This document shows positions 26,977 to 64,000 of a stretch of 64,000 bases of DNA, in pieces. The first letter of the stretch is position 1, and every line of letters starts with the position of its first letter. Origin of the DNA: Amoebophrya sp. A120 (taxonomy: Eukaryota; Protista; Dinoflagellata). A model generated the notes under the pieces. It did not search any database and was not told where the DNA came from. It saw nothing but the letters and a program-made list of their open reading frames with translations. The DNA lies in NCBI GenBank assembly GCA_905178155.1, contig CAJINV010000010.1:423866-487865 (forward strand). Direction: 5' to 3'. Position numbers and translations under genes: made by a program.

Positions 26977-27382
26977 CAGAATCAGAATCAGAAAGTTTGG
27001 CTTGGCTTGGCTGCGGGGCGGCGTTCCAGAACTTTAAGAGTGCAGCTGGAGCTATTCATGAGCTATAACTTGACCACGCATACTAAATTCTAGTAGAGGC
27101 GGCTAACAACGAACTTGTCCTCCCCCCACGTGATCATACAAACCCCGGCCTGAAATTCATGCTTACTGGGTGGGGCTGGGAAAATAGGCCATGAACCCGA
27201 CGGACAAGAACGCCGAAAGTCTTATACTTGGCCAACGAATCAGAATCAGAATCAGAAAATTTTGGCTTGGCTTGGCTGCGGGGCGGCGTTCCAGAACTTT
27301 AAGAGTGCAGCTGGAGCTATTCATGAGCTATAACTTGACCACGCATACTAAGTTCTAGTAGAGGCGGCTAACGACGAACTTG
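26977..27382. repeat. Near-identical ~142-bp direct duplication (26977-27118 and 27241-27382)
   Basis: CAGAATCAGAATCAGAAA...GGCTTGGCTTGGCTGCGGGGCGGCG...CTAGTAGAGGCGGCTAAC.ACGAACTTGT occurs twice with a 122-bp spacer. Confidence 0.95.
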
Positions 27383-33224: not shown

Positions 33225-34472
33225 GTTGTTGATTTTTGGGGTGAGGGATGAATAAAACGGAAAACTCGTGGAGGCTGTGGCAGGTGCCTTGCTGGAAGAA
33301 ATTTAGATAAATCGAGATGAGTTTTGAGAAAATAAGTGGAGATCGAGATGTTGGGAGAACAGCATAAAACCGAACCGAACAAAAACTGGATGTGCTGTTG
33401 ATGTTGAAACTAAAGAGTGTACTACTCGCCGAGCTGTATTTGATGCAGAAGATTAGAATCAGAACTTGAGCTGCGAGGCGCATCTATATACTTAATTTGT
33501 ACGGCATAGACGAAGAAGCTGAGGCAGCCGATATCTAACTGATCAGAATGCAGAAGGTGAGTCTACGTAGATAAAAGGAGGTCCTGTTTGCCGACGATTG
33601 TTTCACCGAATCGAGACGAGGTCATCGAAAATGAAAATCGACAAGTGCTGTTTACAGCGCAGCAAACCGCACTGGGTTTTCGGTTTGATTCAATATCAAC
33701 AGCCGACGAATCAATGAAATGGTCCCACACAAAAGTAAAAAAACCGAGAATGATAGTTGTGCGGCGAGACCCAGACCGATGGCCGAAAGGGTCTTGTCGC
33801 TCCTGTGCAGAGCCTGCTTCCTGTTGTCCCAGAATTGAGAGAGAACCGAAAGCGAACTCCCTGTTACCGAAGGCGGAATGGAGCCATCAGGTGAGCTGCC
33901 GCTGCGAACAAAACACGAAAACACCATAGTAGGCATCACGCCTTGATGAGACTCCCCCTGGTTGATCTTTCTTTTGTTATCTTTTGCAGCAGGGCTGCCG
34001 ATACCCATCTCGGTAGAAAAAGAAAACGGGTCCCGCCGATTATGTAGCTCAAAAGCGCGTGATAAGACGAAAACGTGTGTTCCCGGGGTAAGACAGTAGA
34101 GCGAGGACATCAGCCCGTCGGTACAGAGCGCATGTATGAATGGAAAATCATCGAAAAGCATGAGTCATCAGGAAGACTGGACATCCTGTAGCTCTGGCTA
34201 CAAATAAGACTCGTCACACAGCGCAGAACTCCACGTCCTCGTGCTCCGTCGTGCCTTTTTTCATCATGATGAGTAGTAGGTTCAAAGTACAACTACGTAT
34301 GTTCGTGTTGGGCTGGGGCAGGGCGAAGGGTAACTACGTTGAAAAAATGCTGGCTTAGATTGCGCCACAGAATGCGGCATGAGACAATCAGGCGCAACCG
34401 TTGCGCGACATCATCAAAAGTGGGCGCAGTTCGTTGAACGAACTGCGAACTTGTAACCCGACCCCCTCGTGA

Positions 34473-36337
34473 TCACTCCGTGCCCGTCCACGCCACCCTG
34501 GGTGGTTGCTGCTGCACGCCTCCGCCCCGCTGCCCCCGCCCCCGCCGTGGCGCGTACGGGTCTCTCTGGTTCGGTGGCGCATCGGCCCAGGAAGCTGTCG
34601 TCGTGGTGGTCGTCGTCAGGCTTGTCACGAAGTCATTTGTCATCGGCCCTCGTGGCGCGAAACTAGCCTGGGGGAGGGTATCGGAGGTGGGGGCTTGGAA
34701 CATGCTGGCGTTGGGGGTTGGAAGATTACCGTTTATTGGCATACTATCATTACTGTTGTAGCCGGGAGTACTATATCAACTGCAAATATGTCTGGGTCTG
34801 AGACTTGTCATGCACGTTTTGCACGAGCCAAGATGCCTGTGATGCATGCCCTAGCATCACAGACTTTTTGATGAGGGCTTCTTGATGCCTATTCCGGATG
34901 ACAATTGCCCTCTCCGCGTAGCAGACACTACATTTCCATTGCTGCCCATGCAATACAGATTTTCTTGGAATCCAAATACAGCATCACAAGTTGCATTCTT
35001 CCAAACCCAGACATATTTGCATTTGATAAACTAGAAGAAAATTGCTGCGATTGTCCACCTATCCTGTGCAAAAGTATCGCACTCGTATAAATGCAAGTCT
35101 TGCATTACAAATCTTCCTCTTGAGGCAAATCCGCATTGCAAATTTTATATCTCATGCTGAAGAAATTTGTAATGCATTTATACGACTACGATACTTTTGC
35201 AGTTCATACCACCACCTCCGCTCGCAGCGAATCCTCTGCCGACGAACTGGTCCTGTTCCGCCGAGTTTCTGCTTTTGTCGTTGTCAATGATCAAACCGGT
35301 CGGGATGTTTGTCGGCACGTTGTCTATGGCCGTGCCGTGGGAATTCAAGACCGGTTGCCCGACGACCACCGTGTCCACAGGTGGTTATGCATTGCAAAAG
35401 TATCGTACTCGTATAAATGCATTACAAATTTTCTCAGCATGAGAAATAAAATTTGTAATGCTAATTTACCTTAAGAAAAATATTTGTAATGCAAGACTTG
35501 CATTTATACGAATACGATACTTTTGCACAGGATAGTGGTCGCATGCCCCCGATTCCGTCTTGGTACTGCAACGCCGCGTATCCATTGCAAATATGTCTGG
35601 GTCTGGAAGAGTTGCGCACGATTTGTCATGTACATTCTGCATGACTCGTGATGTCTGTGATGCGCGCTCTAGCACCACAAATTATGCGAGCGCTTTCTGA
35701 TCATCCCGCCATGCCTATTCCGCATGAGAAATGATGTCCACTCCGCGTAGCACAAACTGGACTCTTCTTTTGCTGGTCACGCAATACAGATTTTTCTTTG
35801 GAATCCAAAGACAGCATCACAAGTTGTAACCTTCCAGACTCAACAGATGACATATTCGCAATGCATACCGCGTCCCTCCTTCGCGCCTCCTCCCTCGATT
35901 TGGCGGAATAGCGCTCGATCAGTATGCACAGCCCGCAGATTCCCAGCGACGCACCGGCCATCACGGCAAACCCGATCATCCAGCTGAGCATGTCGTTGCT
36001 ATTGTCGTCGGTATATGCATTGCAAAAGTATCCTATTCGTATAAATGCAAGTCTTGCATTGCAAATCTTTGTCTTAAGGCAAATCTGCATATACAAATTC
36101 TATTTCTCATGCTGAGAAAATTTGTAATGCATTTATACGAGTACGATACTTTTGCAATTGATACGGTAGAACTATCGTCAGCGGAGGACGATGACGGCTG
36201 GACCCGCGAACCCGCACTTGGAACTTCCTGCCCGGGGAGGTTATTCACGCCGGACGTGTCTCCGACGACTACATTTAGGCTAAATATGGAGGGACTACTC
36301 TCAAGTGGTGCTACTACCTTGATCGCTCCTGCGCCAT
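34473..36337 (-). CDS. Hypothetical single-pass membrane protein, 4 introners
   Basis: Spliced: DSSTDDNSNDMLSWMIGFAVMAGASLGICGLCILIERY...RRDAALQYQDGIGGMRPPVDTVVVG...GGGGQSQQFSSS(T)PGYNSND...WTGTE*; start codon tentative. Confidence 0.7.
34774..35028. mobile_element. Introner family A
   Basis: TSD tacta/aacta; frame restored. Confidence 0.9.
35060..35208. mobile_element. Introner family B
   Basis: TSD ccacc/ccacc; frame restored. Confidence 0.93.
35386..35534. mobile_element. Introner family B (opposite orientation to 35060-35208)
   Basis: TSD gtggt/gtggt; frame restored. Confidence 0.93.
35579..35867. mobile_element. Introner family A
   Basis: TSD ccgcg/ccgcg; frame restored. Confidence 0.92.
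36014..36163. mobile_element. Introner family B
   Basis: TSD cggta/cggta; frame restored. Confidence 0.93.
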
Positions 36338-36546
36338 GAATTTTTTTCAAACAACATTGACGAAGGTTTATTGAGGATGAGTCTCAACTTGACCAAGCCA
36401 CTTCGGATGACAAGTTCTCCATTACGTGCTCCTCAATTTATTTAGCATTGAAATCCTTGCCAAAAAAAAAAAATCCGTAAAATGCAAGACGCAATAAAGG
36501 CTGTCTTCTTCTACTTTGGCTATTGATGCCTGCATCACAGACAGAT

Positions 36547-39500
36547 TCAAGTATAGAAGTTGTACGGCGATTCAAGAAGTAGAAACCCGTTTGAGAACCT
36601 CCCGAGCATACTGGGACTCGGCGTTGCCTCCGATCCGTTGTTTTGCCAGTCGGCGGAAGATAACGTCCACACCCCTTCCAAAGACGGCGCCGCGATGCTT
36701 GGATTGAAACTGTTCCAAATTTCTCTGCCCTTGTCCTCCATTCTATCCTTGTACGTTTATGACAGTTCATAATTCCCCCTCCCCCTCATTTGTCATGCAA
36801 AATACCAAATCCACCCTTTGCCCTGTGGCACTGCTTGCGTGACAGATTCCCGAAGCCGAAACAGCTCTGCAGTCAGTCGTAAATATGTCATGCAAAAGCT
36901 ACATCTCTGCCAGGACTTGTGTTGCTGCGGATGCCATGTCCAAATGAGGGGGAGGGGGAGTTGTGCGCTTTCATAACGTTTCTGCCACGTCCAAAGCCGC
37001 GTCCGGGAGATTCTGCGGCAAGGCGGCCACTATGCATTGCAAATAGGTCTGCGTCTGGAAGATTGCAAGACTTGTCATGCTTCTCGGGCTTGACTCTTAG
37101 CTCTGTAATGCTGAGCAGGCGCGAAAAGATCCTCTGGTCTGTTATACAAAAATCGAGCCTGCCATGGGGAATACGTCGCAACACGACGGGGAACAAAAAC
37201 TTGTCATGCTCGGCCACCTATCGCAGTGATCTGATTATTCACAGACCTGCATCACAAATTTCCAGACCCAGACATATTTGCAGTGGATAGCCGCAGCGTA
37301 GGGGTAGGCCCGTTTGATCTCCACTGACATTTCTTCGTAGATCGCGTTCAGTTGGCTTCGCTCGGGCCCGGTGTCCGGGATTTGTAGCCTCTCCACGATC
37401 CTTTCCAGCCCGGTTTTGTACAAATGGTCAATCTCCTGGTCCAGAGCCAAATGCCAGTTGTTGTCCAGCCCCGCGGCGTTATTCGGACACGCGTCGCAGT
37501 CGCACTCGTAGCGCTGCGTTGCGACCAGCCAGTAGACCCGGGAATTTCCGCAGAACCGCGGACACCAGAGGTTGTCCATGGTTTGAAAATTTGCGTCCTC
37601 CCGCTTGCAGCACCCCCCGATGTTGGGCTGCGTGACCCCGTCGTCGCAGATGTAGTCGTGGTTTTTGGTCGCCGGGGGCTCGCACTTCTGGTACTTCGCA
37701 CAGGGACTGTCCTTCTTGATGCAATGGTTGTTGCAGTCGTCAGAGATGTCCGCAATGTGGTTGCACTTGGTCGCGCAGGAAATCCCGCAGGATAAGGCCT
37801 CGGAGGAACCGCAATGGGCGGCGAGGGCGTTGCACTGCAGCTGGTTTTCGTCGGTGCAAATGTGCTCGTACTCGGGGGAGGTGCAGCAGGAGGTGGAGTT
37901 GAGTGCGGTGATGATGTCTGTCGTATAGAAGTAGAAGTACAACTAGAATTTATTTTACAAACATCTTGTTCATGACCACAATCGAAAGAGAGCACAAGCA
38001 CACTCGCTGTTAATCTTGTTGCATCACAAGCATTTGCTGAGAAACGCATCATCGTTTTCACGTATCAAAAAATACCGCTCTTGCACGCGCAGTGCGCGCT
38101 GGCTTGTATCTGCTCCCACCGGGTGCTGTGGGGATACCTGTATCAACTGTAAAAGTGTCTGGGTCTGAAAGATTCTGACACTTGTGGTCATGCACGTTTT
38201 GCATGAGCCATGAAAGATGTCTGTGATGCATACCCTGGTAATACAGATTTTCTGAGGGCTTCTTGATGCCTAATTTCGCATGACAAATGGAAATGCCTTC
38301 TCAGCGTAGCAAAAGATGCATTCCCTTTGCTACTCATGCAATACAGCTTTTTTTGGAATCCACATGCAGCATCACAAGTTGCATTCTTCCAGACCCAGAC
38401 ATTTTTGCACCTGATAACCTGGAAACGCAAGCAATCCACTCGGCCGCCATCGTTGTCCTTTCAAAAGCGACGGAGTCACAGACTTTCATGCTGTTGCCGG
38501 AAGCCGTTTCCGCGACTGCATGGTCGAATAGGCACTTTACTTTGTCCCAGAAAGTATGAACAGGGGAAGCGCACTTCTTCGATGGTGTAGTGAAGCTGAA
38601 GAGAGTTCTTGCAGACACAGCACAAAGAGATCCACCATCTGAGGCGTGCCACTGCAACGTCGCAGTTCCAGTTGCACATAGACATACACATACTTGTGAC
38701 ATTCCGCATGAACATGATTGCAGATCATGACCTCTTCCTCTTCTCATCATCTTCATCACCATGACCACCAGAAAAGGCCTTCCTCTCCATACCACTGGGA
38801 ACATTCACACGGCGCCCCGGCCAGGCTCTCGTAGGCGGTTTCGAGGCAAAGTATGACCCGCTCAGGTGTTACAATGTCAAGCGTTGCAATAGAATATGGA
38901 GATCTGTGATGCAAGAGCTGCATGATCTAGCCTACTCTGACAGGATTGCGCATGACAAGTTGAAGTTTCGGAGTCCCAAAGAGCCGCACATGGAAATTTG
39001 TATTGCAGAAAGTGGAACGCACTGGAAGTCTGTCATGCTCATCATGCAAGACAAAATCCAGACTCTACTGTAACAACTGAGATTGTAACACCTGAGCGCG
39101 TTGTACAAAGCGGCGGGCATTTCTGCTTGCACTCCTGCGCCCGCGCGTCCGTGCAATCCGGGTTGCTATGACAGTGCACAGCTTCCCCTCCCCCTCATTT
39201 GTATAGCATAAACGGCAATCCAAGCGTCAGCAAGAATGCCGGTTTTGCATGACAAATTTGCCCAAGAGTGTAGTACTGTGTGGGCTTCCGGAGTTTGTCA
39301 TGCAAGCAGTGCCAACAGGCGCAGCCTGGATTTGGCATTTTGCGTGACAAATGAGGGGGAGGGGGGATTGTGCACTGGCGTAGTTGCAATCCAAGGTGCA
39401 CATGTTTGTCCAGGTGGGGTGGTCGCAGCAATTTATCGCGCTGGTCCAGCTGGGGTCATGGCTGTACATGTCTCGCCATTTCGGCGTCAGGTCGTTCTGG

Positions 39501-39931
39501 CACCAGCAATCCACGTGGACACGCTCGGACGTACCTGGTGGCGGTTTTGCAGCGTTATGTAGGCTAGCTGTCAGTACTAGGCTCTTTGTGCAGCTTCGCA
39601 CGTATTCATCGAAAACGAAAAAGAATGAAGCGAATTGGTTTATCATTGTGGTCGGGCATAATTCAAGCACAAGCACAATGAGGCAGCATTACAACGTCAA
39701 ACTCCTGAACAGCACAATATCAATACCGGGAACGGTAAAATCCGCCGTCTGCCATGCGTTATCACTACAGGTCGCGTAGCTTTGGTATGGTGGTGGCGAG
39801 TAGGCTGTGAGCCAGAACGAGTTGCACCACACGGAGGCCTGAGCGTTAGCAAATAACTGTGCTGGACTAAATTGTTGCAAGACTACCGTCCAAAGGAACA
39901 AGAACCGGGTGGGGATAAGCAAAACCGCCAT
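36547..39931 (-). CDS. Secreted cysteine-rich protein, 5 introners plus GT-AG introns
   Basis: Signal-like MAVLLIPTRFLFLWTVVLQ. Spliced NCCDHPTWTNMCTLDCNPDCTDARAQECKQKCPPLCLETAYESLAGAPCECS, ACVSRYPHSTRWEQ, SCCTSPEYEHICTD...CATKC, YAAAALPQNLPDAALDVAETYKDRMED...FYT*. Confidence 0.75.
36758..36975. mobile_element. Introner family F (TIR TATGAnAGnnCAnAAnTCCCCCTCCCCCTCATTTG)
   Basis: TSD acgtt/acgtt; removal gives VAET-YKDRM. Confidence 0.9.
37031..37289. mobile_element. Introner family A
   Basis: TSD gccac/gccgc; frame restored. Confidence 0.9.
38141..38416. mobile_element. Introner family A
   Basis: TSD acctg/acctg; removal gives CVSR-YPHS; GT-AG possible in a shifted register. Confidence 0.92.
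38852..39105. mobile_element. Introner family G (TIR TAYnACnCGCTCAGGTGTTACAAT)
   Basis: TSD caaag/caaag; removal gives KCPPL-CLETAY. Confidence 0.9.
39167..39382. mobile_element. Introner family F
   Basis: TSD gttgc/gttgc; removal gives LDCN-PDCTD. Confidence 0.9.
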
Positions 39932-42901
39932 GCTGGAAAAAAACTGTCGTGATCGACGTGCTCCTGCGTGTGAATGAATGTCTCCTGGGGGACAGAACGG
40001 ACTGCTGCAGGCCGACGAGGAGGAGTGTTGTTTTCGCATCAACATCTTGATCATGCGGATCGTGATCATGCGGAGATTTGGATCGAATCCAGCACCGCCA
40101 AAGCCCAATCACCAGCACGGCGAAACAGAATTCCACGTGGGTATTTGTTCGTTGCACCGTCAATGGAATGTCAATTAGGACGACGTAGTGGTCTTCTACC
40201 GGTAATTTCCAGCCGGATATGTTGATCCAAACCGTGCCGCATGGACCTGCATGTGCATGTTCCGTGTTCTATCTACACGCGATGGAGCTCAACAAAAAAA
40301 AGAAAAAGATAGTGTGTCATCTTTTGTTTTTCGCACTACACTATCTAGTTGATGCAGTTATTCCTTTACGCGTCAGGTTTAGGAGCGAGGGCCTGACGGC
40401 GATAACGGCGGTGTTAAAGTTCGTGTTTGTTGTTGGAAACAAATAAAACTTCTTATGCAGAAGCAGGGGAACTAACAAAGGTTGATGAAGAAAATATCTT
40501 TTTTAGGTAAAAATACGACTAGAGGGGGCAGGTGGGGGTAGGTACGATGAGGCAAGAGCTGTAGACTTCAACGAAGACGGAGAGATGGAGAAAGCCGGCC
40601 GATCTATTTCCGTTTTCTTCACCGAAAGAGTTACTAGAAAGAGAGCAGGACCATGATGTTTATTCGACGTTTTGGTAAAGAAACACTACCTGCAGAGCCA
40701 CCACCTCCCGCCTAAAGAAACAACTTTAAGGACCGATAGTCTGCAAGACTTGCATGCTTTCTGCTCGATATTTTTCTGCACACCTTCCTTCCGAGATGAA
40801 GTCAACATAACCGACATTGTCATGATGAATCACGTTCAACGTAGTAGAGTTCTTCCCACCACGAAAGCACTGCAGAGCTGTAGTGGATCACACATGCACA
40901 TCGCTTTGTTGATGACGATACTTCTTCCACCGTTGGTTTTCTCCTGAACAGCTACAACTCAGAACACAAGAACTTATTTCGGGACGTGGTAAAAGACTAC
41001 AACACTGCGCACGGGCATGTGTGAGTCATTGACCCTGGTGGTCCGACCCACAGAAGGACCGTGCAAAACTTCGATAGCAATAGATACTGTACTGAAATTG
41101 AAATAAACTCGTTAATACAAAAGAAACATGTTGTTTTCCATGAGAGAGAAATCCTGGATAGATTTTGCTGTTCTACGTTTGTCAGACAAACTTCTTCTTA
41201 TTGTGTAAACGTGCAACTCAGTCAACAGTTTTGTTGAAAGATAGATTTGTTCGAGTTTTAGTTTTAGCAGAGGTGAAGATCATGACTTAGGTAGAAAGCA
41301 TCGCTTTCACCTTCTTGGAGCAAAATTTTTGAACTCTTCTTCTTCTTGTTCTTCATGCGTCGAATATCATAAAATTAGTGTGGAACTTTGCATATTCGTA
41401 GTGTGCAGCTACGCTGGTAATTTTGAGAAACAGAGCGACAACAGACACCGAGGCGACAAGAACCACCTGGCATCTAACTGTCGCCCCGCTGCAGCCTCTA
41501 CTACACTTCTCATATTTTCATTTTCCTTGTTGATTATACGGAAGGTCAGTGCCCATACCCGCTTGGTAGAATCTGCAGACACGATACCGAACGGGTTGCG
41601 CTCATTCATCTTACTGTCTTAGCCATAGAGTTTGACTCGCCACCGCTGTCTAGTACGGGGATCTTTCTCTTATTCACCTCCTTCGTGCCTGATGAAAATG
41701 TAGATTAATGTAGTACAAGTACATGATGAATATGAAAATTCAGTGATTCGACGGAAGAGACGTATTCTGCTTTTCTGCTAGTACTCACTGTGCACACAGT
41801 CATTTTTTCTGCAATCTAAAAAAATCTCGTCATGATGAGGTGCCACAAATTTCATCCAAAACGCGATGCACCAAGCAACTAGGTTGTAAAAAACTAGAAA
41901 CACTTAACAGTGATTGCCTGGGAGGTGGACGAAGAGGCTGTATAATTGTTTTGAATTTTGCAGAGTTTTCGAAGTTAGTGAGTTTTTCTGTTTGCACAAA
42001 ATTTGAATCTTCTATCCAAAAGACTACGTCATGGTGAACATGCTATGAACAGGGATTTTGTCAAGAAAATAAAACTTTTACTGTATCTAAAAATAACCGC
42101 TACGTAGTACTCAATTTCCTGTTCAATTTCGAACCAAAAAGCTGCCAACGTGTTTCTTTCTGTGGTACAAGTTTTAAGCAGACTGCCATTAGTAAAAAAT
42201 TGCTAGGTAGTGTGTCTGTGAAAAGTAACAATTTCTGAACGTCAATGATGTACAAAAAAAGCTGATTTGATCGTGCTCTAGTCCAGACTATAGCAGTAGA
42301 GAGATTGATGTTAATGTTTAAGAAGTTTATGATTCTTGGAATTTTGTAAAAAGAGTTATCTTCAGCTGCCCAAGTGCGTACAGATTTAATGCTAAACGAG
42401 AACTAGAATATATTTTATGTTACAACAGAAGCTTTGAAGCTATCAATTTTGAATTTTTACGTTCAGTCAGTGTGAGTACAATGTGAACGACCAAAGTAGA
42501 CGTCACTTTGAGCTAGTAGCTAGGAAGAACTCATAGGACAACTGAGTCACATAGGAGATACAAATAAATCTTGTACGATAGTACTGAAGAAGAACGAATT
42601 GCCTTGATCTTGCACTACCAATATATAATGTTTTTGAAGTTTTTCGTTTTCCATACAGACAGGCATTATTGCTTAGACGAGGAGGTCATGAAGAACGAAT
42701 AGTCAATCTGCTTGGTCACCCGAAGAAAAGATGAAAGAACTATGGTGCTTTTTAGCACGAAGAAATGATGCGTAAACATTATTTCACCCTCGTCGTGATA
42801 GTGGTAATGTTGCGACCAGCATAATCAATATTTTTTCATTTCATCTACATTTTTTTCACTGTAACCCTAATCAGTAGAAGTAGCACCATTCAAGAATAGT
42901 T

Positions 42902-45900
42902 TCATTTCCCCGGCGACAAAGACGACGCTGCAGCGGAAGAAGACGCAGCACCCCCTTCCTCCCCCAATGAAATGCAAATATGTCTGGGTCTGGAAGAGTG
43001 TGATGCTGTTTGTGCATGACACAGAAGGTCTAGCATGCAAGTCCTAGCAACACAGGTTTTGAGTAGGTTACGTTAGGCGATGCCTAAGTAATCCGCATGA
43101 CAAAGTTCCCTCTTTTGGTAGCAAGAAATGAGCAACTTTTGCGGTCCATGGATGACAGATTTTTTTCTGGTCTCAAATACGCATGAGAAATTTACATGTT
43201 TCCAGACCCAGACATTTTTGCAATCCATACCCCCGCCACCGTTCCAACATCAGGGCACGACGTGTTCTGTCGCACCTTCCCCGGTCCGGTGGAGGCATCG
43301 GAACTTTTCTCGTCGCTGCTGTTAGAAAAAGATTTTTCGCTGCTTGCGCAAGACGTATTGTTGCTGGTGCTGGAAGACGTTCTGCCGTGGTTGCCCGCAC
43401 GCTGATGCTGCTGGTCCTGTTGCTGCTGCCACGAGGAACGCTGCCGCGAGTGCGTGGCGTTCTGAAGGTTGTTTGACGAGGTCAAAAAAAATACACATCT
43501 TCATGATTTGTCATGCATTGATGCAACCCCGAAATAAATCGCTACTGCATGAGCATGCGCATGCTTGTCAACGTGCATTACAAACTCCTTTTACCTCAGC
43601 CCTGACGCCGCAGTAGTGAATCTGTTTTTTCGGGTCGCGTTCTATCCTGTGCAAAAGTATCGTACTCGTAGTAATCGCAGCCATGCATTACAAATTTCTC
43701 TCTGAAGTTAAATCCGCATTACAAATTTTATTTCTCATGCTGTGGAAATTTGTCATGCGATTTATTTTATACTAGTGAGATGCTTTTGCATTTCATACGT
43801 TCGATGGTCTTGCCAATCGAGATGTCGTCCACGTTGTCAATTCCGTCCTCCTCGATCCATTTCCGCACGTCGAGCTCGATCTTCTGGCACTTCTGTTCCA
43901 ATTGGTAAGCATCCTGTCCCGACCGGCTGTAGTTCGTTAAATGCGTTTTGTAGTGCACTTTCGCGAAATCCAGAAGGGCCTGGAAAAGCAGAAACCGGAA
44001 CTGGAAGTTCGTGGAACCTGGAGTCGGTAGTTTTGGGTGTGGATTTATTTTCTGGTTTGCGAATAATTGTTTTTTTCTAGGTATTGTACATGATGCACAG
44101 CCCATGCATATCAAAACCCTGTGAACAAGTTGGAGGAAAGAGCTTTCGGAACGAAAACGAATGCTAATAAAAAATTACTTAAATACGCTATACCGATCTT
44201 GTAAGCAAATCTTCTGTTGGCCAGCAATTCATGCGCATCGCTCACGTATCCGCAAAAGCACATCAGGCGGGCGGTATGTTGGGAAAATCTTGACCTTGAG
44301 GCTAGAACGTGACAGAATTAAGTATACAAGATTTGCATTCACCGCTTCTTGCTTGAAGGGATGGCACCACTTGTAAGCCTGTACGACCAAATGCATATTA
44401 ATCCTCTCTTTAGGCCGCCATGGACGCACCACCCGTTCTTATTCTTGTACTACTTCTAAATAAGCGAATCACAATCCATTTGACTTGTCCAGCATCCCCA
44501 ACATCAACTTTTCCCTCGATACATCAGCGCCGCGTCGCTGTGCGCGTTGTAGTATGCAATGCAAAGTATAAGTATCGCACTACTAGTATAAATTGCATTA
44601 CAAATTTCCCCAGCATTACAAGTTGAATTTGTAATGCTGATTTGCTTTGAAAAAGAGATTTGTATATGCATCACTGCAATTAGTACGAGCGCGATACTTT
44701 TGCAGTGCATATGTAGTACCCCGTCTGCGGACTGGTGAACGTGTAGAACTGCCGCAAAAACACCGGGTAGTAGTGCTCCAGGACCGACTGCTGAAATGGC
44801 AGATTGTTGGGGCGGTACCGCTCGAATGCGGAACACATCATGCACCAGATCCGGCTGTTTGACGGGATGTTGTGCCGCTCCTGGTAGTCCACGATCTGCC
44901 ACAGCATCTCCCAGCACTGTTCCTTCGAGATGTCCGGGTTGATTTTGTGGAAGTATTTGTTAATGAGAAAACTAGTCACGTGCAAAATCCCATTCGTGTC
45001 CAACTTCCGGTGCGATTGCATTTTGTTTTTCTTCTGGTAAACGGAAATTTGTTCCTGGATCACCTCGTGCAATTGCGAGAAGGATCCCGGGCCCGGGTTC
45101 AAAATTTGCTGGTACCGCTGCAACCCCTTCAGGAAGTTGGGCTGTTTGCTGTTCATGTTAATGCTGTTGATGTTGTGATTCGAGGACCCGGCGCCATTTA
45201 TTTTTCCTTGCGGATTGGAACAACTTGTGGACGAAGATCCTGCGATAATATTGCCCCCGCTGGCATGCTGACAACTGTGGCTCAGTTTCTGCAGCGCGAG
45301 GTTTTTGTTACTACCCGATGTTGAACTTCGCTGCTGCAGCGCCGTCGTGTGCTGCTGGTGTTGTTCCAAAATTTTAGAAGCGGAAATGTTCGACCGGTTG
45401 CTGATGCTCAACGCAGTTTGCGGCGACATGTTGTAGTAGAGCTCTTGTTGGTGCAGTCCGCTTGCTATGGAACTGTCAGGATTGAAATTGACAAAGTTGA
45501 AATGATTTGTCATGCATGAAATGGATGCCAGTTCGTTGGAACCCAGTTTCTAAGTGGCGCATGACAAATTTCGGTGGTCCTTAAATCCAGTTTGTCATGC
45601 TGTTTAGGCAAAGAAGAGGGATTTTCTCATGCTACTTTAGCAGCTCGAGCTCTAACCCCAAACAGGCTTACAATCGGCCTCACTTGCCTGCTCTGCAACA
45701 CACGCACCTCGCGTCATGCATTTTCTGCATTGCAATTTGTTTCAACTTTGACGATTTCAAACCTGACGCTTCCATACTTGCCGCGGCCGACACATTCGTA
45801 ATGGGCGACGGACAGGGCGACGGGTGGAAAGATCCAGCTCCTTGGGTCGTCGAACAAGCGTTGTAACTGTAGGTCAGATTCCCCGGGAAGTCGTAGTTGA

Positions 45901-48900
45901 AATCGGTGTAGCCGTGTTGATCCGCGGTGGTATCACCGCCGGGATTGGTCCAATACGCCGCGGCTCCGGGGGAAGACAGCGGAGACGTGCTCGGCGGATG
46001 TTGAGTGACCACTCCGGTTGGAGGATGTGCGCCAGCAGTAGTACTACCCCAGCACTGCGGATGATGGTGATGCGGTTATCCTATGTAAAAACGTCCCCAC
46101 GCCACGGTTGTATTGCAAATCTGAGTGCTGAAATTGTTTCTCATGCGGAGCCCCATGAGAAGCATTTTCCAATCGTGTTTTGCAATTTGTCATGCTCCAA
46201 TCAGCATGATATACTAGGTCTGTGATGCTGCTGAGCTAGCTCAAACAGCACTACGCTACGAGTCCAAATCTGTCATGCAAGACAGCCAAAACTTGTGGAT
46301 TTGTCTAGCCAATCCCCCATCTTGACTATGGGGTGGGGACGTTTTTACATAGGATAGCGGTTGCTGGCTGGCCGCTCCACTGTAGGCTGTCGACGCTGAC
46401 TGTGCCTGGTTGTTAAGTTGAGGCGGTGTTTGTCATCATCTTTAATTTTCATTCTGAAGCAGAACCTGGCGACGAGTGCCTCGGCATGCAGGCACCCGCA
46501 TTGGATGAACAAGATGAACGAACGTCCCCCGAAACTAAAGAATGCCATTAGCACAATAAAGAACCTCCCTACCTGCCCAGTTGATTCCAGCGACTCCAAA
46601 GACGAGCGGCAGCTCGCGCCAGCAGCGACCGTTGCACCACCACCCTCCGCAGCTAACTCCTGCTTGAACAAAGACGTACACAACCCCCCGTTTTTCCCGT
46701 TTTCCTGCTGGTGCCGCAGAATGGCCTGCCGCGTCTTCTTGATCAGCTGACTTGCGTTGTGCGGCGTTTCTTCAGTGTAGTCGTGCTGCGGGTTCATAAT
46801 TTCCTCGTTGGAAGAACTCGTCTTGGAATTGTTGTCAGAGTTGCTGTAAAACAGCTTCGTCGGCTGCATCTCCGATCCCCAGACAGGACTGTAGGTCAAC
46901 TTCGTCGGTTGCAAATCAGAACCCCAGGACCGCTCTGGAATAGTTGGCGGCTGCTTGGAGGTTGGGTTCGTGGTTTGATTCTTCGCTGGGGCGTTGTGGT
47001 TGCAATTGGGATTTTCCACGGTCAACGACCCGCTGTCATCGCGCGACTCGGATGAAATCGTGGTAAAGGAACGGGAAATCAGGTTGGAGGACTGTTTCAT
47101 ATTTGTGATGATAAACAACAACAAGATAGAAGATTAGGGTTTAGGGTGCTATATACTTGTTTCTTCCGCTACTCGTCCAACACACAATGGGACTCATGAC
47201 ACAATCCGGCCGCGTGACAAACCGAAATACGGCAAAACAACTTCTTACCTCGGCCGAACAGGATTGAAAAGCCGCTCCGGGCGTCGGAATTGCGAAGCTG
47301 CCATCAGAACTGGGAAGCGCGATGGACGAAATTTGCTCCGATTCTTGCGCCGGCGAGGATCTACGGCTGTTGTTCCTACTGCTGCGAATATGCAGTACCG
47401 CACTTTGACTCGTCGGAAGGACGTCCTTGGCCGCGACGAAACGTAAACCAGGGGAGCTGCGACTCGCCGAGTTTTGCTGGCGCTGCTGGTTCCTGATGAG
47501 TTTTATTTTAGGTTGGTCATGCACGACATCCACGCTGAATGGGGGTATGTTGAAGCAGTTTCCATAGCCGAACAATGTTTCGGCATGCCAGCGCAAGTTG
47601 TACAGAGTTGTCACAAGATGCTGCTGCAGAGAAACCGAAGCTCCAATAAAATCCTATATTCTATACTGCGCCTGCAAAGTCCGCTGCCGTTGGGATCCTA
47701 TCAGAGTCTTCAACCGATTGTAGTTCAAGGAGGGTCCGGCCGCCCGGTCGGCGCTATCCGGAGACCCGAAGTAATCACTACGAGTGTTATTGCTGTTTGC
47801 GGTCGCCGCACGGGGAAGGGGGCCTGAGTTAAAAGTACAATTTTGTCATGCTCAATACGCTTACGCGGCGTAGTGTGGATGTGAATGTGATAAGAGTATA
47901 GTACTTCTTAATGCGCAACACAAGCATCATCACGCCGTAAAAATGACACTCAGAACCGAGAGTACTACTTACTCAAATGCCACCAAACCTACCTGTCCCC
48001 TGCTTCACAGCACCACCACCACCACCGCTTCCATTGCACGCGGAATCGACTCTCCCCAGAGTGCTGTAGTTCCCGTTCTGGTAAATTTCGTTGGCTACCT
48101 GTTGCAAGTTCTGCTCGTAAATTTCGTTCTCCGCGGAAAACCCGAAGTTGGTGTACTGCCCCTGCTGTCGTTGTTCCTGACGCCAGAAATCCTGCGGACC
48201 ACCGGCGTTTGAAGTCGTTCCCGCTCTCGGTAACATCAAACGGTCCTCACTTACAGTCGTGTTAATCACGTCACCGGTCACGTTCTTGTTCCCTCCTGAC
48301 CGCCTCCCCCCGCTCATGTTCAAGGCATGCCGCTCGTTTTGCTCCTTCAGCAGTTTCAAATCCAGGCACGGTGGCCGGGCTGGCGGCGGCGGTAGCAAAC
48401 TGGGCGAAGACTGCTGCTTCGGCGCGGGCTCTAATTCATCGAAGATGGAGGTGGGCGTGTTTTTCAGGCTGTTGCTGGGGTGGTTTTTGTTGACAGAACT
48501 ACCGCAAGAACTATGATCCCGTTGGTCGTTGATGTTCATGATTTTGTTGTACTCCAGAATGTCCTGTTGCCGCTTTATGTTCGCCTCTTCCTCCTCGTCT
48601 CTCTCGCCGGCATTGTTGCTCGTCGTCGTTTTTACCAGCGGTGAGCATGACAACACCCTAGCGACGTTCAGGTCGTTTAGCACCGTGCTGTGATTCAACA
48701 CTTCCACTGAAGCTCTAGACACGTCGTTCACCGTAGAGCCACCGTCTTGGTCATGCTCTCCCGCTGTGTTGTTGCAACCACCAAAACCGCCGTTCATCAG
48801 GGTCGCACAGTCAGACAACTGCTCGCTCACCCTGTTGGTACTGTCATCGTTGTTCTCACACGTGGTTGATGCCCCGGTGTTCGTGATGCTGGTCACCGAG

Positions 48901-49520
48901 GTTTGCTTCCGCTGCTCGAAAGAAGATAAAAAGTGGCACGGTGCCCCAGTTTCATCTCCTCCAGTATTCGGATCATTTTGGTACGCTCCGAAGTACAGTT
49001 GATGGTGTTGGTCCTCTGGCGAGCTGCAAAACCCCGACATGCTATGGTGGTTATTGTAAAAACCGCCGAACGAAGTGTAGTGGTCATCGGGCGGCGACGC
49101 AGCGCCCTCCGACGGAAGGTAAGTCGAGGGGGAGGAACCGTCGAACAGCTGCTGATGGGAAGCGTGCTGGTGGTCCGCCTCCTTGTTGACGTGGTCTTGA
49201 CACTTATTTTCATCAGAATCTGCAGCAGAACCACAGCTCTCATGCTGCAGCTGCTGCTTGTAGTTTCTCATCGTGGGCTTAGTTGTCATTTTGTTTGCGG
49301 GATAAAGTAAAGCAGGAGAACCACCGACCCCGTGTTCTTCGTTATCGTCCAGGAAGTCCTCCGCTTCCATCTTTTCCGTGTTGTTCGCCTCTTCTATGCT
49401 AATCCTGTCCAAAAAGCGTGTGAGTAGGGAGTTGTCCCCCCTATAATTTCTGGTGTTCTCCTTGTCCTTGGTTGTACTATGGTCCTTCAAGGAAGTGTAG
49501 TCCTCTCGATGTGCTCGCAC
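42902..49520 (-). CDS. Large multi-exon S/N/Q-rich hypothetical protein with globular C-terminal region; 4 introners; 5' end uncertain (might be two genes)
   Basis: ORFs 47973..49520, 47141..47614, 46345..47124, 45680..46012, 44680..45513, 43767..44114 and 43192..43485 are linked by GT-starting introns and introners (SQQP-HHHHPQ, TGYY-NAHS, KTIER-DPKK, TVAG-EEGGA...GK*). Confidence 0.55.
42966..43229. mobile_element. Introner family A (left terminus AAT)
   Basis: TSD ccccc/ccccc; frame restored. Confidence 0.88.
43643..43797. mobile_element. Introner family B
   Basis: TSD cgttc/cgttc; frame restored. Confidence 0.92.
44553..44711. mobile_element. Introner family B
   Basis: TSD tgtag/tgtag; frame restored. 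Confidence 0.9.
46077..46356. mobile_element. Introner family C
   Basis: Perfect 24-bp TIR TATCCTATGTAAAAACGTCCCCAC; TSD gcggt/gcggt. Confidence 0.93.
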
Positions 49521-50758
49521 AAAATAATTTCAGACTGCTGCAAGCATCTTGATCTTGATCGTCGCTGCTTGTACTGCAACTGCTCTTCGTCTTCTCCTTT
49601 GAATAAAACTTGGTTTGTGGTAAATTTATTTCTCGTCTTTACATTTCGCAATCGTGGTCGTCGTTCTGTAGTTTCTCGTCGTTGTACTTACACAAGGATG
49701 AGAATCTGTTGGTAAAGAAGTTTGCTGGTTTGACACATCAATCTTCAGTACATCGTTGATACTGGGTATCCTTAGAAATTATCTGCTGGACAAGGACGAG
49801 ATGCAGATCTACTGCAGAAGGTCCTCGAGAAGTAGTTGTTTCTGCAGCTGAGGATGTGTCGTAGAAAATTCCGGTGGTTTCGCGGGTCCCGCAGTAAGGA
49901 GTCGTTGCTGCTGTAGTTTTCCACACGGCGCACGAGCCACTTGTAGATGAGGTGGCTCTCCCGCCGGCCCGGCACAACAGCACGCAACAGGCACGGGTAG
50001 AAAATCTGTGTGGCAATTTACTTCGCAGCTGTTGAAAAGCAAAAGATAGGACAACGATGGAAGGTTTGTGCGTTTGCCCTGCTTTATAAAAACACTCAAC
50101 AAACTGGATGGAAAAAACAGTCCTCGACTAGTACCCTTGGAGCAAGGACACGACAACCTGGACTTACTACAACAACCTCAGGCTGAAACACTGACTACTC
50201 TGACTGCAGCTAACTTTTTGGTTCGGGATAATTTTGAATCGCATGATTATCAAATATTTTCTGAACAATGAATCAGGATGAAGAAACACACCAAGACACT
50301 GTGTGCCGTGAAAAAGGATCAGTTGGGACCGTCAAGAAAGTTCTTCAACAAGCCTTTACTAGTCACAACTCCTTCTACTTCACGCCTCCTCTCCGCTCTT
50401 CCTCCACTAGTGCAGTTCTCCATTGACGGCATGAACACTCTAAATGCATTTATCGACAACATCAGCTTGCAATATTGCATGCGAGTATCATACGAGCGCT
50501 GCGTACAATCGATGAGAGCGAGGATACATTCTTTCTAGTTGTTCTACGTAGCGACACGACACCCAAGCATCGACAGCGATCAAGTCGAGATAGCGATAGC
50601 ATCGAAGTTCGAATGCAAACGAAGCACTACTTGTTGCCACGATTCGCAAAATTATGAAAGGTGTTCTTGTTGTATTTCGATAAATGAAATCTAGCCGCGC
50701 AATTCCTGTGTACTATTACAGCAACTGCAACATCAGCTTAAGCTTGCAGTGCGTACAA

Positions 50759-52465
50759 TCACTCTCCAAAAATGAGATCGAGACACTCTCTACTGGACAA
50801 AACGGGAAAGTCGGGCGAGTGCGCCGTCCGCATCAATTTCTCCGTGCTTAGCAAAATGCTGCCTCGGCTTCCTTTTTGCTGATTCGCGGCTGTACTTGTT
50901 GTGTTATCCCGTATCTCTGGGTTGTAATTTTCCAGTTTTGTCTTCAACCGCTGAACCAGATCCTTTTCGTAATCGACAGCCCCCGGATTGACGAAGTTCA
51001 AATTCCCACACGTTTTCGTTTTCACCAACTGCGGAATCGTTGGGCATAAGTTGTTATCAAGTGAAAAAGCGTCTGGGCCTGAAAGGTTACCAGGTTTGTC
51101 ATGCATATTTTGCATGACTCAGGATGTCTGTAATGCATGATCTAGCATCACATATTTTTAGAGGCCTTCCTGATGCCTGTCCCGCATGACAAATGCCCTC
51201 CCCGCGTAGCACAAACTGGGCTCCTCTTGTTGCTGGTCACGCAATACAGATTTTTTTAGAGTCCAAAATTAGCATGACAAGTTCCAACCTTCCAGACCCA
51301 GACATATTTGCGATGCATAGTTCTCCAGAAAGGTGATGCTGTTCATTGCTTTGTCCACCCGCGTGAAATTCCGTAGCTTATCACATGCAAAAGTGTCTGG
51401 GTCTGGAAGGTGGTAACTTGTGATGCTGTCTTTGGATTCCAAAAAAACTCTGTATTGCATGACTAGCAAAAGGAGTCCATTTTGTGCTACACGGGGAGGG
51501 CATTTCTCATGCGGAATAAGCATCAGGAAGCGTTCTAAAAATCTGGGATGCTAGGGCATGCATTACAGGCGTCATTGGTCATGCAAAATATGCATGACAA
51601 ACCTGGCAATCTTCCAGACCCAGACATTTTTTCACTTGATACAGCTTCCCCAGCAGCGACTGCTTGTTCTCGAATGTCCTGTATGAATTGCAAAAGCATC
51701 CCATCGTACTCGTATATATGCATTACAAATTTCCTCAGCGTGAGAAATAAAATTTGTAATGCTAATTTACCTTAAGAAAAAGATTTGTGATGCATGATTG
51801 GAATACGAGTACGATACTTTTGCACAGGATATCCTGTCCTTCATCGAGATCGGGAATTGCACGCGCAGATTCAGCACGTTCGGGTAGTAGCTGAGCAGAT
51901 CCTCTAAGACGCAGCGCGCTTTGCGGTAGAAATGGACCGTGGGCATGGTTGACCCGTCTTTACAGTCTATGTTGTCGATGTAGTCGGCTCCTTTTATTGT
52001 GTCCTTCTCCTCGTCATAGTAGTCTTGGTTCACGATCCTTGCATCCTCTGGTTCCATCGGCGGGTAAACCATGCAGCTGCCGACGAAGGTGCAGTGGATA
52101 GGGTTTTGATTGGTCGCGTTTTCTGCTTTGATATTTTCACCCTCTACAACTTCTTCGCCCAAGACGCGACACGCCCGCGCGACGTTCAGCTGGCCGAGAA
52201 TGTTGGCCTCGATCGTTTCACAAGGATGGTCCAAGCACCAGTCGATATTTGGCTGGCCGCGCACCCCGGCCGAATTAATCACGCCGTAGCGGATGGGTTG
52301 GCTCTGCTTGATAAAGTTCAGCACCCCCTCTGCGTTTTCCAGGCGGAGCGACTTGGGGTTGGTGACAACTTTGAGGTTTTGTTTCTCCAACGCTTCCAGA
52401 ATGTGCTGTCCGATAAAACCGGAGGCGCCGAAAAGAACGAAATCGCAACCGGGGGTGGAGGACAT
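50759..52465 (-). CDS. NDP-4-keto-6-deoxyglucose 3,5-epimerase/4-reductase (NRS/ER, RmlD-like; rhamnose synthesis), 3 introners
   Basis: GASGFIG, NSAGVRGQPNIDWCLDHPCETIEANILGQL, FYRKAR, NVLNLRVQFPIS. The spliced continuation KQSLLGKLRNFTRVDKAMNSITFLENLCPTI...GNLNFVNPG matches the plant NRS/ER pattern (FITKI..Y.KVV..PNSMTILDELLP...GIYNFTNPG, recalled). Confidence 0.9.
51055..51319. mobile_element. Introner family A
   Basis: TSD gttgt/gttct; removal gives FLEN-LCPT. Confidence 0.92.
51379..51641. mobile_element. Introner family A (opposite orientation to 51055-51319)
   Basis: TSD tagct/cagct; removal gives LGKL-RNFT. Confidence 0.92.
51682..51831. mobile_element. Introner family B
   Basis: TSD tcctg/tcctg; removal gives MKDR-TFENK. 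Confidence 0.93.
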
Positions 52466-53578
52466 TTTTTTTTTTGACGAAGGTCGAGCTTCCGGGTGGC
52501 GGGCCCGCCGGGGGGTTCGGCTTCTTATGTAAATTTTCTTGAAGTTGTAACAAGCGAAACGTGCAAGCGCTCTTTCAAATTCAAAACGGGCTCATGAGAT
52601 AGAATCGCGATGGGGCGAGCAATCTTCGGGCATCCGTGGCAATAATTCGCTTTGATGGTAGTTGGAATCACACGACTTCTGAGCACGCACCGAAAGTGAC
52701 GACAAGAACGCCGGCAGAAAGATGGAACACTTCTTCAAGCCCTTTGCTTGTTGTATCTTCTCCGGGCTGCTTTGCAGCCTCCAAACGCATGTACTCATGT
52801 ACAGGACAAATTTGGTATTATACAGCTAATGTAGAAATGTGTTGATTGCAGTCGTTGACATGTTCTTGCGTTCCAGCTCCAGACGAATCGGTCGATTTAG
52901 TCGCCCACCTGCTAAGTGGGATTGGGAATAATAGAGACTATAGCTTAAGCACGCTACCTATCACATTGCTAGGAAGTACATGTATAAGCTAAAGCGAAAA
53001 AAGATCATGACGCAAGAAAATAAAAAGGGCTAAATTGACTGTGAAAAGAGTACTGGGGCAAATTTCTAAAAAACCTCGTTGCCGAACTAGCGCCATGCCG
53101 CAAGTGCAAAAATCACATATAATATGCCACGCTGATGCAAACTTTATGCATGCTGAAATCAGCGCAGTTTCGGTTTTAATTGTTCTTTTATGGTGAGCTT
53201 TATGCTGTCGAGTTCAAGTTTTTAATTTGGGATCATACATCATGTCTAGCTCAACACGTCAACATCTCGACTTTCTCAGAAGGTCAAAAGCGAAGAAATG
53301 TAGTTGAGCTGTTGCTTTCTAAAATCATGTAACGACAGTGAACCTAAATGTGTGCCTGCCTGTGCCTGCATGTATGCAAAAATAAATAAAAACCGTTGCA
53401 AATAAAGACTTAGACTGCCCGCCCACAGCGACATCGTTGCGGATGTACAAGTACATGGCACCCACCTGCCTATTTGCATTTTCCTTGAGTAGACCAGGAA
53501 CACGAAATATGTGCTCAGTATGCATAGTGCGGCTCCAAAGATCGACAAGACTCTACTCTCCTCGTCCAATGTCAAAAT

Positions 53579-59349: not shown

Positions 59350-59394
59350 GTAACGACAGATCTCATTCTCTGAGAGAATGAGATCTGTCGTTAC
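59350..59394. repeat. Perfect 45-bp palindrome (22-bp arms, 1-nt centre)
   Basis: GTAACGACAGATCTCATTCTCT G AGAGAATGAGATCTGTCGTTAC. Confidence 0.95.
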
Positions 59395-63500: not shown

Positions 63501-64000
63501 AGCTCTAGCATCACAGGTTTCGCAAAGCTTCCTTGATGCCGAATCCGCATGACAGGTGCCCCACTTTGGTGACAGAAAGTGGGCAGCTTTTGCTCCCTAT
63601 GCATGAGAGATTTTTCTGCGTTCTGAAATGCGCATCACAGGTTTGTATTCTTCCAGACCCAGACATATTTGCATTTGATAAAGTCGCCGGGCCGTCCATC
63701 GGGTCGCCGTCGTTGTAGTTATGGATTGCAAATATGTCTGGGTCGGGAAGGGTGCAAGGTTTGTCATGCAGATTCGGTATGATCCATGACGCCTGTAATC
63801 CATGATCTAGCATCACAGATTTTTAGAGAGCTTCCTAATGCCTATCCCGCATGAGAAATGCCCTCTGCGCGTAACACAAACTGGACTCCTGTTGCTGGTC
63901 ATGCAATGCAGATTTTTTGGGAATCCAAAGACAGCATTACAAGTTCCAACCTTCCAGAATCAGACATATTTGCATTTCATACTAGTCCTCTTGGAGCAAA
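60513..64000 (-). CDS. Paralogue 2 of 53579-58367, 5'-truncated by the window edge; 3 introners, a Pro/Gln-rich insertion and an unexplained frame change near 62310
   Basis: EHAYEELRVYLD..VRKGFKTYLRKLV versus KYAYPMLKNFLE..VRVELKHYIRSLV; EVEQLLVRWVLQQVAKF versus EIELLIVRWVLQQAAKF. Confidence 0.75.
61092..61236. mobile_element. Introner family B
   Basis: TSD cccag/cccag; removal gives DGRLG-QNRLY. Confidence 0.93.
62444..62590 (-). repeat. Coding tandem repeat, five LPAGFQ-containing units (mostly 27 nt)
   Basis: QALPAGFQP...QLPAGFQRQALPAGFQRQALPAGFQRQPLPAGFQP. Confidence 0.9.
63429..63680. mobile_element. Introner family A
   Basis: TSD cggtc/aagtc (3 of 5); removal gives GPAT-DWDDP. Confidence 0.88.
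63720..63981. mobile_element. Introner family A
   Basis: TSD gtagt/ctagt; removal gives LQED-YNDGD. Confidence 0.9.

What the first reader, a model, noticed from the sequence alone, without database searches (positions are those of the whole stretch)
35060..51641. Same-family introners sit in both orientations within one gene
Seen: family B interiors read CTCATGCTGAAGAAATTTG at 35060-35208 but CAAATTTTCTCAGCATGAG at 35386-35534. Family A copies 51055-51319 and 51379-51641 are likewise reverse complements of each other. All host genes are on the minus strand. Established: spliceosomal introns normally need a strand-specific branch point and acceptor. Inference: all required signals are in the symmetric TIRs or in motifs present on both strands, so any insertion is spliceable at once. 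This also favours DNA-level transposition over reverse splicing, which would fix the orientation.
Basis: partly seen in the sequence, partly recalled or inferred. Interest (0 to 1): 0.72.

Follow-up and report, generated by a model that had tools for sequence, protein, structure and literature searches.

The report
Flippable transposon introns, fixed lopsided cut
In what is likely the marine parasite Amoebophrya, small mobile DNA elements sit inside genes facing either way about equally often and are missing to the base from transcript contigs in both directions without normal GT-AG ends; the elements are already published, and the added detail is a likely fixed cutting position and a one-sided DNA landing motif.

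Summary
Observation confirmed. The B pair (35060/35386) and A pair (51055/51379) are reverse complements inside minus-strand genes. They are TAT...ATA inverted-repeat elements with 5-bp target duplications and match the published introners of Amoebophrya A120. Transcript contigs skip element plus 5 nt at 10 of 10 listed joints, in both orientations of both families. In a second assembly the orientation ratios are 45:43 (A) and 19:17 (B). All 8 informative mismatches in damaged duplications fit one cut, 1 nt before TAT and 4 nt after ATA, so each mirror end supplies a donor-like N-UA start or an acceptor end. A relaxed spliceosome is likely but untested. Insertion sites carry an RCRA motif 12-15 bp to one side, on either strand, which supports DNA-level transposition. 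Two-way introners are already known in Aureococcus and Polarella, with near-normal splice sites. This scan noted the two-way property, the 1+4 cut and an offset motif earlier, on other pieces of this genome.

The parts
35060..35208 (.). Family B element (149 nt), orientation 1, duplication CCACC
   Evidence: removal inferred from exact contig-length match 3401 nt and an 815-codon open frame, no direct joint seen
35386..35534 (.). Family B element (149 nt), orientation 2, duplication GTGGT; cannot be read as GT-AG
   Evidence: removal inferred as above
36014..36163 (.). Family B element, orientation 1
34774..35028 (.). Family A element, damaged duplication (informative for the cut)
35579..35867 (.). 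Family A element
36285..36610 (.). Old TAT..ATA element with decayed duplication, found from the 331 nt missing in the RNA contig
36758..36975 (.). Family E element, orientation 1
37031..37289 (.). A-like element, damaged duplication (informative)
38141..38416 (.). Family A element
38555..38791 (.). Old TAT..ATA element with decayed duplication, placed by reading frame and contig length
38852..39105 (.). Element with TAC start, perfect duplication, found by closing a 21-nt gap in the contig length
39167..39382 (.). Family E element, orientation 2 (same gene as 36758)
33972..40560 (-). Host transcript 1: cysteine-rich, probably membrane-anchored protein, 815-codon frame after removal of 12 elements and 2 GT-AG introns
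   Evidence: no Pfam hit for its largest exon
42966..43229 (.). Family A element
43643..43797 (.). Family B element, orientation 1
44553..44711 (.). Family B element, orientation 2 (same transcript contig as 43643)
45466..45776 (.). TAT..ATA element of another family
46077..46356 (.). Family C element
41092..50251 (-). Host transcript 2; 428 nt of intron near 44000-44500 not firmly placed
51055..51319 (.). Family A element, orientation Y; RNA joint 51048>51319 skips 270 = 265+5
51379..51641 (.). Family A element, orientation X; RNA joint 51374>51643 skips 268 = 263+5
51682..51831 (.). Family B element, orientation 2; RNA joint skips 155 = 150+5
50512..52510 (-). Host transcript 3: NAD-dependent epimerase/RmlD-like gene, polyadenylated at 50512
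   Evidence: PF01370 E=2.9e-10
54304..56290 (.). Six elements (D 54304, B 54723, A 54975, A 55319, C 55763, B 56141), each skipped as length+5 in one contig; 54723 and 56141 are B orientation 1
63429..63680 (.). Family A element whose damaged duplication leaves no ambiguity: joint 63424>63682 fixes the cut between duplication positions 4 and 5

Best explanation
These are short non-autonomous DNA transposons (TAT...ATA inverted ends, 5-bp target duplication) that lie in coding exons in either direction and are absent from transcript contigs in both directions, likely because a relaxed spliceosome reads the mirror-image ends and cuts 1 nt before TAT and 4 nt after ATA. Shown: structure, both orientations at about 1:1, removal of element plus one duplication copy, lack of fixed end dinucleotides, a one-sided RCRA motif at insertion sites. 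Inferred from 8 mismatches in 7 elements: the 1+4 cut. Inferred: insertion by an unidentified DDE-type transposase or integrase acting in trans, which picks a site from a motif 12-15 bp to one side and sets the element down in random direction. Inferred: whichever end is transcribed first gives N-UAU, which shares +2 U and +3 A with the GUA donors of the ordinary introns here, and the other end gives AUA-NNNN, from which the acceptor is measured (branch A possibly at -7 or -5). The protein sequence is restored, so flipping costs nothing.
For: 10 of 10 listed joints equal element+5; 10 of the 12 elements in the stretch have one. Model mRNA lengths equal contig lengths for three transcripts: 3401, 1306, 4469. 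A DNA-like run crosses exon-element borders. Cut after duplication position 4 fits 8 of 8 mismatches, other registers 4-7 of 8. 247 of 338 elements in a second assembly have a perfect 5-bp duplication, and no other length fits. Orientation A 45:43, B 19:17. Target motif on one side only: 97 right, 94 left, 13 both, 105 neither, odds ratio 0.15, p=8e-11; unlinked to element direction; replicated in the window. All 7 modelled ordinary donors begin GTA. Three RNA-confirmed precise cuts have a predicted terminal-stem probability of 0.03 or less, and G.U is not favoured over A.C in the TIRs, which fits reading of sequence better than reading of a perfect stem. Nearly all spliceosomal proteins plus U2, U4, U5, U6 are reported in A120, U1 not found.
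Against: No lariat, branch point or spliceosome dependence was tested. Only one junction (63429) fixes the register alone; no B orientation-2 copy is informative and the A orientation-X copy only bounds the cut. The RNA runs are contigs of one study, labelled RNA by guess, and cannot measure retention. No direct joint was seen for 35060 or 35386. No transposase was found; Farhat et al. report none in A120. No drift toward GT or AG is seen in damaged duplications, which a GT-AG-preferring spliceosome might have produced. TIR position 4 is strand-biased (83 vs 49, p=0.004, about 0.06 after 16 tests). The +2/+3 conservation is partly built into my scans.
Confidence: 0.62

Rival explanations
1. 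Same elements, same 1+4 cut, but removal is by a separate structure-guided pathway (protein endonuclease plus ligase, or whatever removes Euglena nonconventional introns) that measures from the paired ends.
For: End dinucleotides are free: 61 end types among 242. The inner TIR stem (positions 10-14) is predicted paired in 34 of 37 on the transcript strand and 31 of 37 on the other. Euglena introns use the same logic, N3-CAG...CTG-N5 with strict spacers, by unknown machinery. U1 was not found in Amoebophrya.
Against: The element start matches +2/+3 of ordinary donors. The terminal stem is predicted open in several precisely cut copies, and wobble pairs are not favoured. The interior motif also occurs in ordinary introns, which suggests a shared system or shared origin.
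Confidence: 0.28
2. Removal is not fully indifferent: insertions land at random but only a subset is spliceable or tolerated, and the 1:1 ratio hides weak strand- or site-specific filtering.
For: Discordant-ended copies put TATC first more often than TATG (73 vs 45, p=0.013). Phase 0 is 134 of 239, more than the target motif predicts (3' side 54:15:15 against 41:15:28, p=0.006). Window family A is 3:10 (p=0.09) and one small cluster is 3:10. Introners are reported rarer in core genes.
Against: Pooled A 48:53 and B 25:22. Duplication base composition hardly differs from codon-matched background. No contig covers the 56141 element at 99% identity.
Confidence: 0.3
3. The elements spread through an RNA intermediate (reverse splicing, or reverse transcription of excised introns).
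For: No transposase is known in A120. Some A120 introner families were classed as retroelement-derived.
Against: Random orientation, a constant 5-bp duplication, homology ending at TAT/ATA rather than at the splice cuts, and a target motif that works on either strand. Orientation alone would not exclude retrotransposition; the fixed duplication and blunt TIR ends argue against it.
Confidence: 0.06
4. The elements are removed from DNA, or the joined contigs come from a strain that lacks them.
For: Runs X1-X4 are RNA only by guess.
Against: The same contigs lack ordinary GT-AG introns, one ends in poly(A), exon pieces match the window without differences, a stretch between genes has no cover, and run X6 keeps the elements.
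Confidence: 0.03

Closest known systems
Introner elements (IEs) of Amoebophrya sp. A120 (Farhat et al. 2021, PMC7789003; seen: abstract, sections 10, 11, 12, 16, passages, supplement legends; figures not held)
   Same: Non-canonical introns with terminal inverted repeats beginning TAT, about seven looser bases, then at least three A; direct repeats of 3-5 nt; many families; co-oriented gene blocks; similar size.
   Different: In the text seen, orientation relative to the gene is not reported, splice sites are called variable relative to the hairpin, and transposase-driven mobilisation is doubted. Here: constant 5-bp duplication, 1:1 orientation, one 1+4 register, one-sided target motif.
Two-way introner classes of Polarella glacialis and Aureococcus anophagefferens (Roy et al. 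preprint 10.1101/2020.10.14.339549; seen: parts 1-2 of 4. Huff et al. 2016 not held, known only through that citation)
   Same: TIR/TSD DNA transposons that create introns in either orientation; one Polarella class has a 5-nt TSD.
   Different: They carry or recruit G[T/C/A] donors and AG acceptors, need particular target bases, and classes 6, 8 and 10 are biased to one orientation. Here neither end dinucleotide is fixed and the main families are unbiased.
A120 families in the Gozashti et al. 2025 catalogue (PMC12130899; seen: passages, 20 of 58 A120 rows of supplementary file 8; files 13-14 not searched)
   Same: TIR DNA families of about 149, 260 and 305 bp with mostly non-canonical ends, superfamily unknown.
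   Different: TSD lengths there vary (2-5) and mechanisms are labelled co-opt or carry; 'orientation' does not occur in the 12 files searched. I did not match my families to theirs by sequence.
Euglena nonconventional introns (PMC12501133; seen: passages)
   Same: Short complementary terminal triplets at fixed, unequal distances from the cuts, with free end dinucleotides.
   Different: CAG/CTG with 3 and 5 nt spacers rather than TAT/ATA with 1 and 4; unrelated lineage; no homology tested.

Membership tests
Amoebophrya A120 introner elements | IR begins TAT, about 7 looser nt, then at least 3 A | tested here: met
   position matrices
Amoebophrya A120 introner elements | Direct repeat of 3-5 nt at the borders | tested here: met
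   5 nt, perfect in 26 of 37 and 247 of 338
Amoebophrya A120 introner elements | Removed from mRNA with mostly non-GT-AG ends | tested here: met
Amoebophrya A120 introner elements | Repeated, in families | tested here: met
Amoebophrya A120 introner elements | Host genome is Amoebophrya A120 | not tested
   inferred from the published IR signature and co-oriented genes; no whole genome held, no taxonomic search run
MITE / non-autonomous TIR DNA transposon | TIRs, short, non-coding, multi-copy | tested here: met
MITE / non-autonomous TIR DNA transposon | Constant-length TSD | tested here: met
   only length 5 fits
MITE / non-autonomous TIR DNA transposon | Cognate transposase in an autonomous partner | tested here: inconclusive
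   5 distinct longer TAT..ATA pairs of 457-834 bp, longest frame 150 codons, in window plus 560 kb of loci; genome not searchable
Canonical U2 spliceosomal intron | GT/GC donor and AG acceptor | tested here: not met
   3 of 37 and 16 of 188 by any equivalent slide
Canonical U2 spliceosomal intron | Lariat with branch adenosine, spliceosome dependence | not testable with these tools
   no raw reads of this strain (run X9 did not cover the genes)
Aureococcus/Polarella-type two-way introner | Creates introns in both orientations | tested here: met
Aureococcus/Polarella-type two-way introner | Splice dinucleotides carried by the element or recruited from the TSD | tested here: not met
   no required bases in the duplication
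Euglena nonconventional intron | N3-CAG ... CTG-N5 | tested here: not met
   N1-TAT ... ATA-N4

The most novel reading that the evidence does not exclude
Amoebophrya has a splicing code, N|N-UAU...AUA-NNNN|N, whose only fixed letters are the transposon's own mirror-image ends, so transposase recognition and splice recognition have merged into one palindromic signal; paired with a transposase that lands a set distance to one side of an RCRA motif resembling its own end, every insertion in an exon becomes a clean intron in either direction, removed by a U1-free spliceosome or a second pathway convergent with that of Euglena.
Probability: 0.4. Interest if true: 0.75.

Novelty: new variant of a known kind. 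Interest (0 to 1): 0.5.

Why it matters
How Amoebophrya removes tens of thousands of introns without GT-AG ends was left open in 2021. Orientation independence restricts the signals to strand-symmetric features, and the 1+4 register names the exact intron ends, so lariat sequencing, snRNA pairing models and reporter mutagenesis become direct tests. The fixed duplication and one-sided target motif argue for a DNA transposase where none had been found and give a signature to look for it. The target motif also explains much of the phase-0 excess without a proto-splice site. The elements themselves and two-way introners in general are published, which caps the interest.

Tried and rejected
Whole-genome analysis was not possible, as no genome is held. 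The family A end pattern has no match in viral contigs. Raw-read run X9 covered only a 41-nt element piece, so it says nothing on efficiency. Canonical GT-AG reading was rejected. Drift of duplications toward GT/AG looked plausible in the window (3 of 5 position-5 mismatches give G) but failed in the larger set (upstream G in 3 of 13). Selection for RNA wobble pairs in the TIRs was not found (19 vs 23, 136 vs 145). Exon-exon pairing as the cause of the flanking motif was rejected, because complementarity at offsets 13 and 15 is below expectation. A stop-codon test of the register on the second assembly gave no informative case. Stronger conservation of the A at -7 than of its mirror position was not significant (6 vs 2, p=0.29). 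The search for a long autonomous copy found none. The 428 nt missing in transcript 2 has one three-intron solution, unverified.
Full report
Observation. The B copies 35060-35208 and 35386-35534 and the A copies 51055-51319 and 51379-51641 are reverse complements (89% and 85% over the aligned arms; 86% and 83% over trimmed interiors, against 58-63% for a copy with its own reverse complement). A scan for TAT...ATA ends with inverted repeats and a 5-bp flanking repeat gave 31 hits against 0-3 in 20 shuffles. The final catalogue has 37 elements: 34 from scans and homology, 3 found later from RNA lengths. 26 of 37 have a perfect duplication. Five families occur in both orientations: B 6:5, A 3:10, C 1:2, D 1:1, E 1:1. 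36 of 37 lie in minus-strand frames and one at the edge is uncallable.

Are both orientations removed? Four runs of contigs, RNA by guess, from one study, were laid on 50400-64000 at 99% identity. All 10 listed joints skip an element plus 5 nt; 10 of the 12 elements there have a joint, 61092 and 63720 do not. One contig joins both A orientations and a B copy in the epimerase gene (PF01370) and ends in poly(A). B copies of the opposite orientation (54723, 56141) are skipped in the next gene. However, a model removing 12 elements and 2 GT-AG introns gives 3401 nt, the aligned length of the contig, and an 815-codon frame. Two elements were found because the lengths demanded them (331 nt; a further 21 nt). 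The other two fully modelled transcripts also match (1306, 4469); transcript 2 has 428 nt unplaced. A DNA-like run crosses exon-element borders. Contigs cannot measure efficiency; in one bin the depth equals the value expected from exons alone (93.0 vs 93), in four others it is higher, probably from other copies.

These are not GT-AG introns. Allowing every slide that gives the same mRNA, 3 of 37 can be GT/GC-AG; 35060 is one, 35386 is not. Damaged duplications locate the cut. At 63429 the joint has no ambiguity and falls between duplication positions 4 and 5. Seven further mismatches (34774, 37031; 51055, 51379, 54723, 56141 and the second at 63429) agree: this register fits 8 of 8, the others 4-7. 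The intron is therefore likely N-TAT...ATA-NNNN. Informative copies include both A orientations and one B orientation, but only one junction fixes the register alone. The 7 ordinary introns I modelled all begin GTA, so the element start shares +2 and +3 with them.

A second assembly. A pattern search returned 160 loci (560 kb with overlaps) from one public contig set, none overlapping the window beyond repeats. It gave 338 distinct elements, 247 with a perfect 5-bp duplication; no other length from 1 to 9 fits. I dropped 18 with fewer than 3 of 5 matches and 78 without a confident gene strand, leaving 242. The strand caller was right for 26 of 26 window elements with the host gene left out, and 150 of 150 neighbouring calls agree. 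Orientation to the transcript: A 45:43, B 19:17, C 9:5, D 9:5, H 2:2, 86 unassigned; 16 of 116 locus-family groups hold both. Clusters among the unassigned give 10:14 and 3:10. There are 61 end-dinucleotide types, and 16 of 188 perfect-duplication copies can be GT/GC-AG.

Signals on both strands. TGTNATGC occurs 51 times forward and 50 reverse in 7.5 kb of element interiors, once each in 16.2 kb of exon, and 5 times in 1.15 kb of ordinary introns. In the second set TGTNWTGC is 449:433, present in 238 of 242 copies, and 198 of 458 same-direction intervals are 31-33 nt, about three helical turns, which suggests a DNA-binding site rather than a splice signal (inference). The inner TIR stem is predicted on both strands (34 and 31 of 37) and the terminal stem in 26 of 37 each; three precisely cut copies have terminal-stem probability 0.03 or less. 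G.U is not preferred to A.C. Against full indifference: TIR position 4 is C more often at the 5' end (83 vs 49, p=0.004 before correction for 16 tests).

Insertion. Relative to the duplication centre, C at +13 and A at +15 (or the complement at -13 and -15) are strongly enriched over codon-matched background (p down to 1e-23). The motif is one-sided: 97 right, 94 left, 13 both, 105 neither of 309 (odds ratio 0.15); 202 of 309 sites have it at the exact offset against 14-52 at shifts of 1-4. Its consensus is R-C-R-A then T-rich. It is unlinked to element direction (A 31:38, B 11:10) and falls on either exon side (84:62). In the window 21 of 36 sites have it, none on both sides; full RCRA is at 8 of 35 against 3.8% background, and at 0 of 7 ordinary introns. 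It is common in families A (39 of 71) and B (18 of 31) and rare in C (1 of 13). RCRA also starts at position 9 inside 304 of 484 element ends, one base off the target register; insertion next to end-like sequences by some bacterial IS elements is recalled, not checked. The motif predicts phases of about 49:17:34, against 134:47:58 observed, so it explains much but not all of the phase-0 excess. No autonomous copy was found.

Mechanism. Most likely an unidentified DDE-type enzyme inserts the element in random direction, and because both ends are mirror images the transcript always presents N-UAU first and AUA-NNNN last. A relaxed spliceosome (about 0.6) or a separate end-measuring pathway (about 0.3) then removes element plus one duplication copy. 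The enzyme, the branch point and the machinery are all untested.

Prior knowledge. Farhat et al. (PMC7789003) describe A120 introners with this IR signature, no U1, variable splice positions and no transposase. The organism here is inferred from that match, not from a database hit. Roy et al. report two-way introners in Polarella and cite the same for Aureococcus, with G[T/C/A]-AG sites. Gozashti et al. 2022 allowed for opposite-orientation copies in their method. The review PMC11282704 (part 2 of 5 and passages) does not mention orientation. Euglena uses an analogous 3+5 spacer code. Searches showed no paper giving orientation ratios, the 1+4 register or the target motif for Amoebophrya. Figures of Farhat et al., 38 of 58 A120 rows and files 13-14 of PMC12130899, bioRxiv supplements and subscription journals were not seen and may bear on this. 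Earlier agents of this scan noted the register, the two-way property and an offset motif on other pieces of this genome. I derived the register before and the motif, and do not count those notes as support.

Verdict. A real feature of a published system. The orientation claim holds, the canonical-intron premise does not, and the useful additions are the fixed lopsided cut and the one-sided target motif. Interest 0.5.

Noticed in passing
window 31497-33053 and upstream exon, element 32987-33137: Sir2-family deacetylase gene (PF02146, E=1e-26) interrupted by a family B element.
   Followed up: partly
window 37918-38075, 39535-39726, 43462-43594, 47824-47992: Ordinary GT-AG introns carry the same TGTNATGC motif as the elements; 37918-38075 begins G-TAT and has ATA six bases before its AG end. 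Some ordinary introns may be aged elements.
   Followed up: partly
window 12560-14200 and 25180-25600: Clusters of the interior motif outside any catalogued element; probably further decayed elements or unannotated introns.
   Followed up: no
window 59350-59394: A 45-bp near-perfect palindrome in a stretch between genes, without TAT ends.
   Followed up: no
window 7052-7137 and 8584-8672: An inverted pair of about 87 bp flanking a tandemly repeated region at 7596-8126; possibly a larger foldback element of another kind.
   Followed up: no
window 15337-15593 and 19977-20237; 26977-27118, 27241-27442, 31040-31103: Direct repeats unrelated to the TAT families, probably duplicated gene ends (genes at 18166-18834 and 21158-22567 look paralogous).
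   Followed up: no
window 53581-58406 and 60513-63427: Neighbouring genes look paralogous (shared stretches such as LLVRWVLQQ and LLGQFVGFLLLD) but carry elements at different places; usable as empty-site controls.
   Followed up: no
window 51269-51309: Raw-read run X9 has about 130 reads on only this element-end piece and none on exons, so a related element end is present in an abundant RNA of a different strain or species.
   Followed up: no
L030 632-1465, L034 5307-5763, L061 571-1051, L062 3862-4492, L089 294-789: Longer TAT..ATA pairs with perfect duplications (457-834 bp), probably nested elements.
   Followed up: partly
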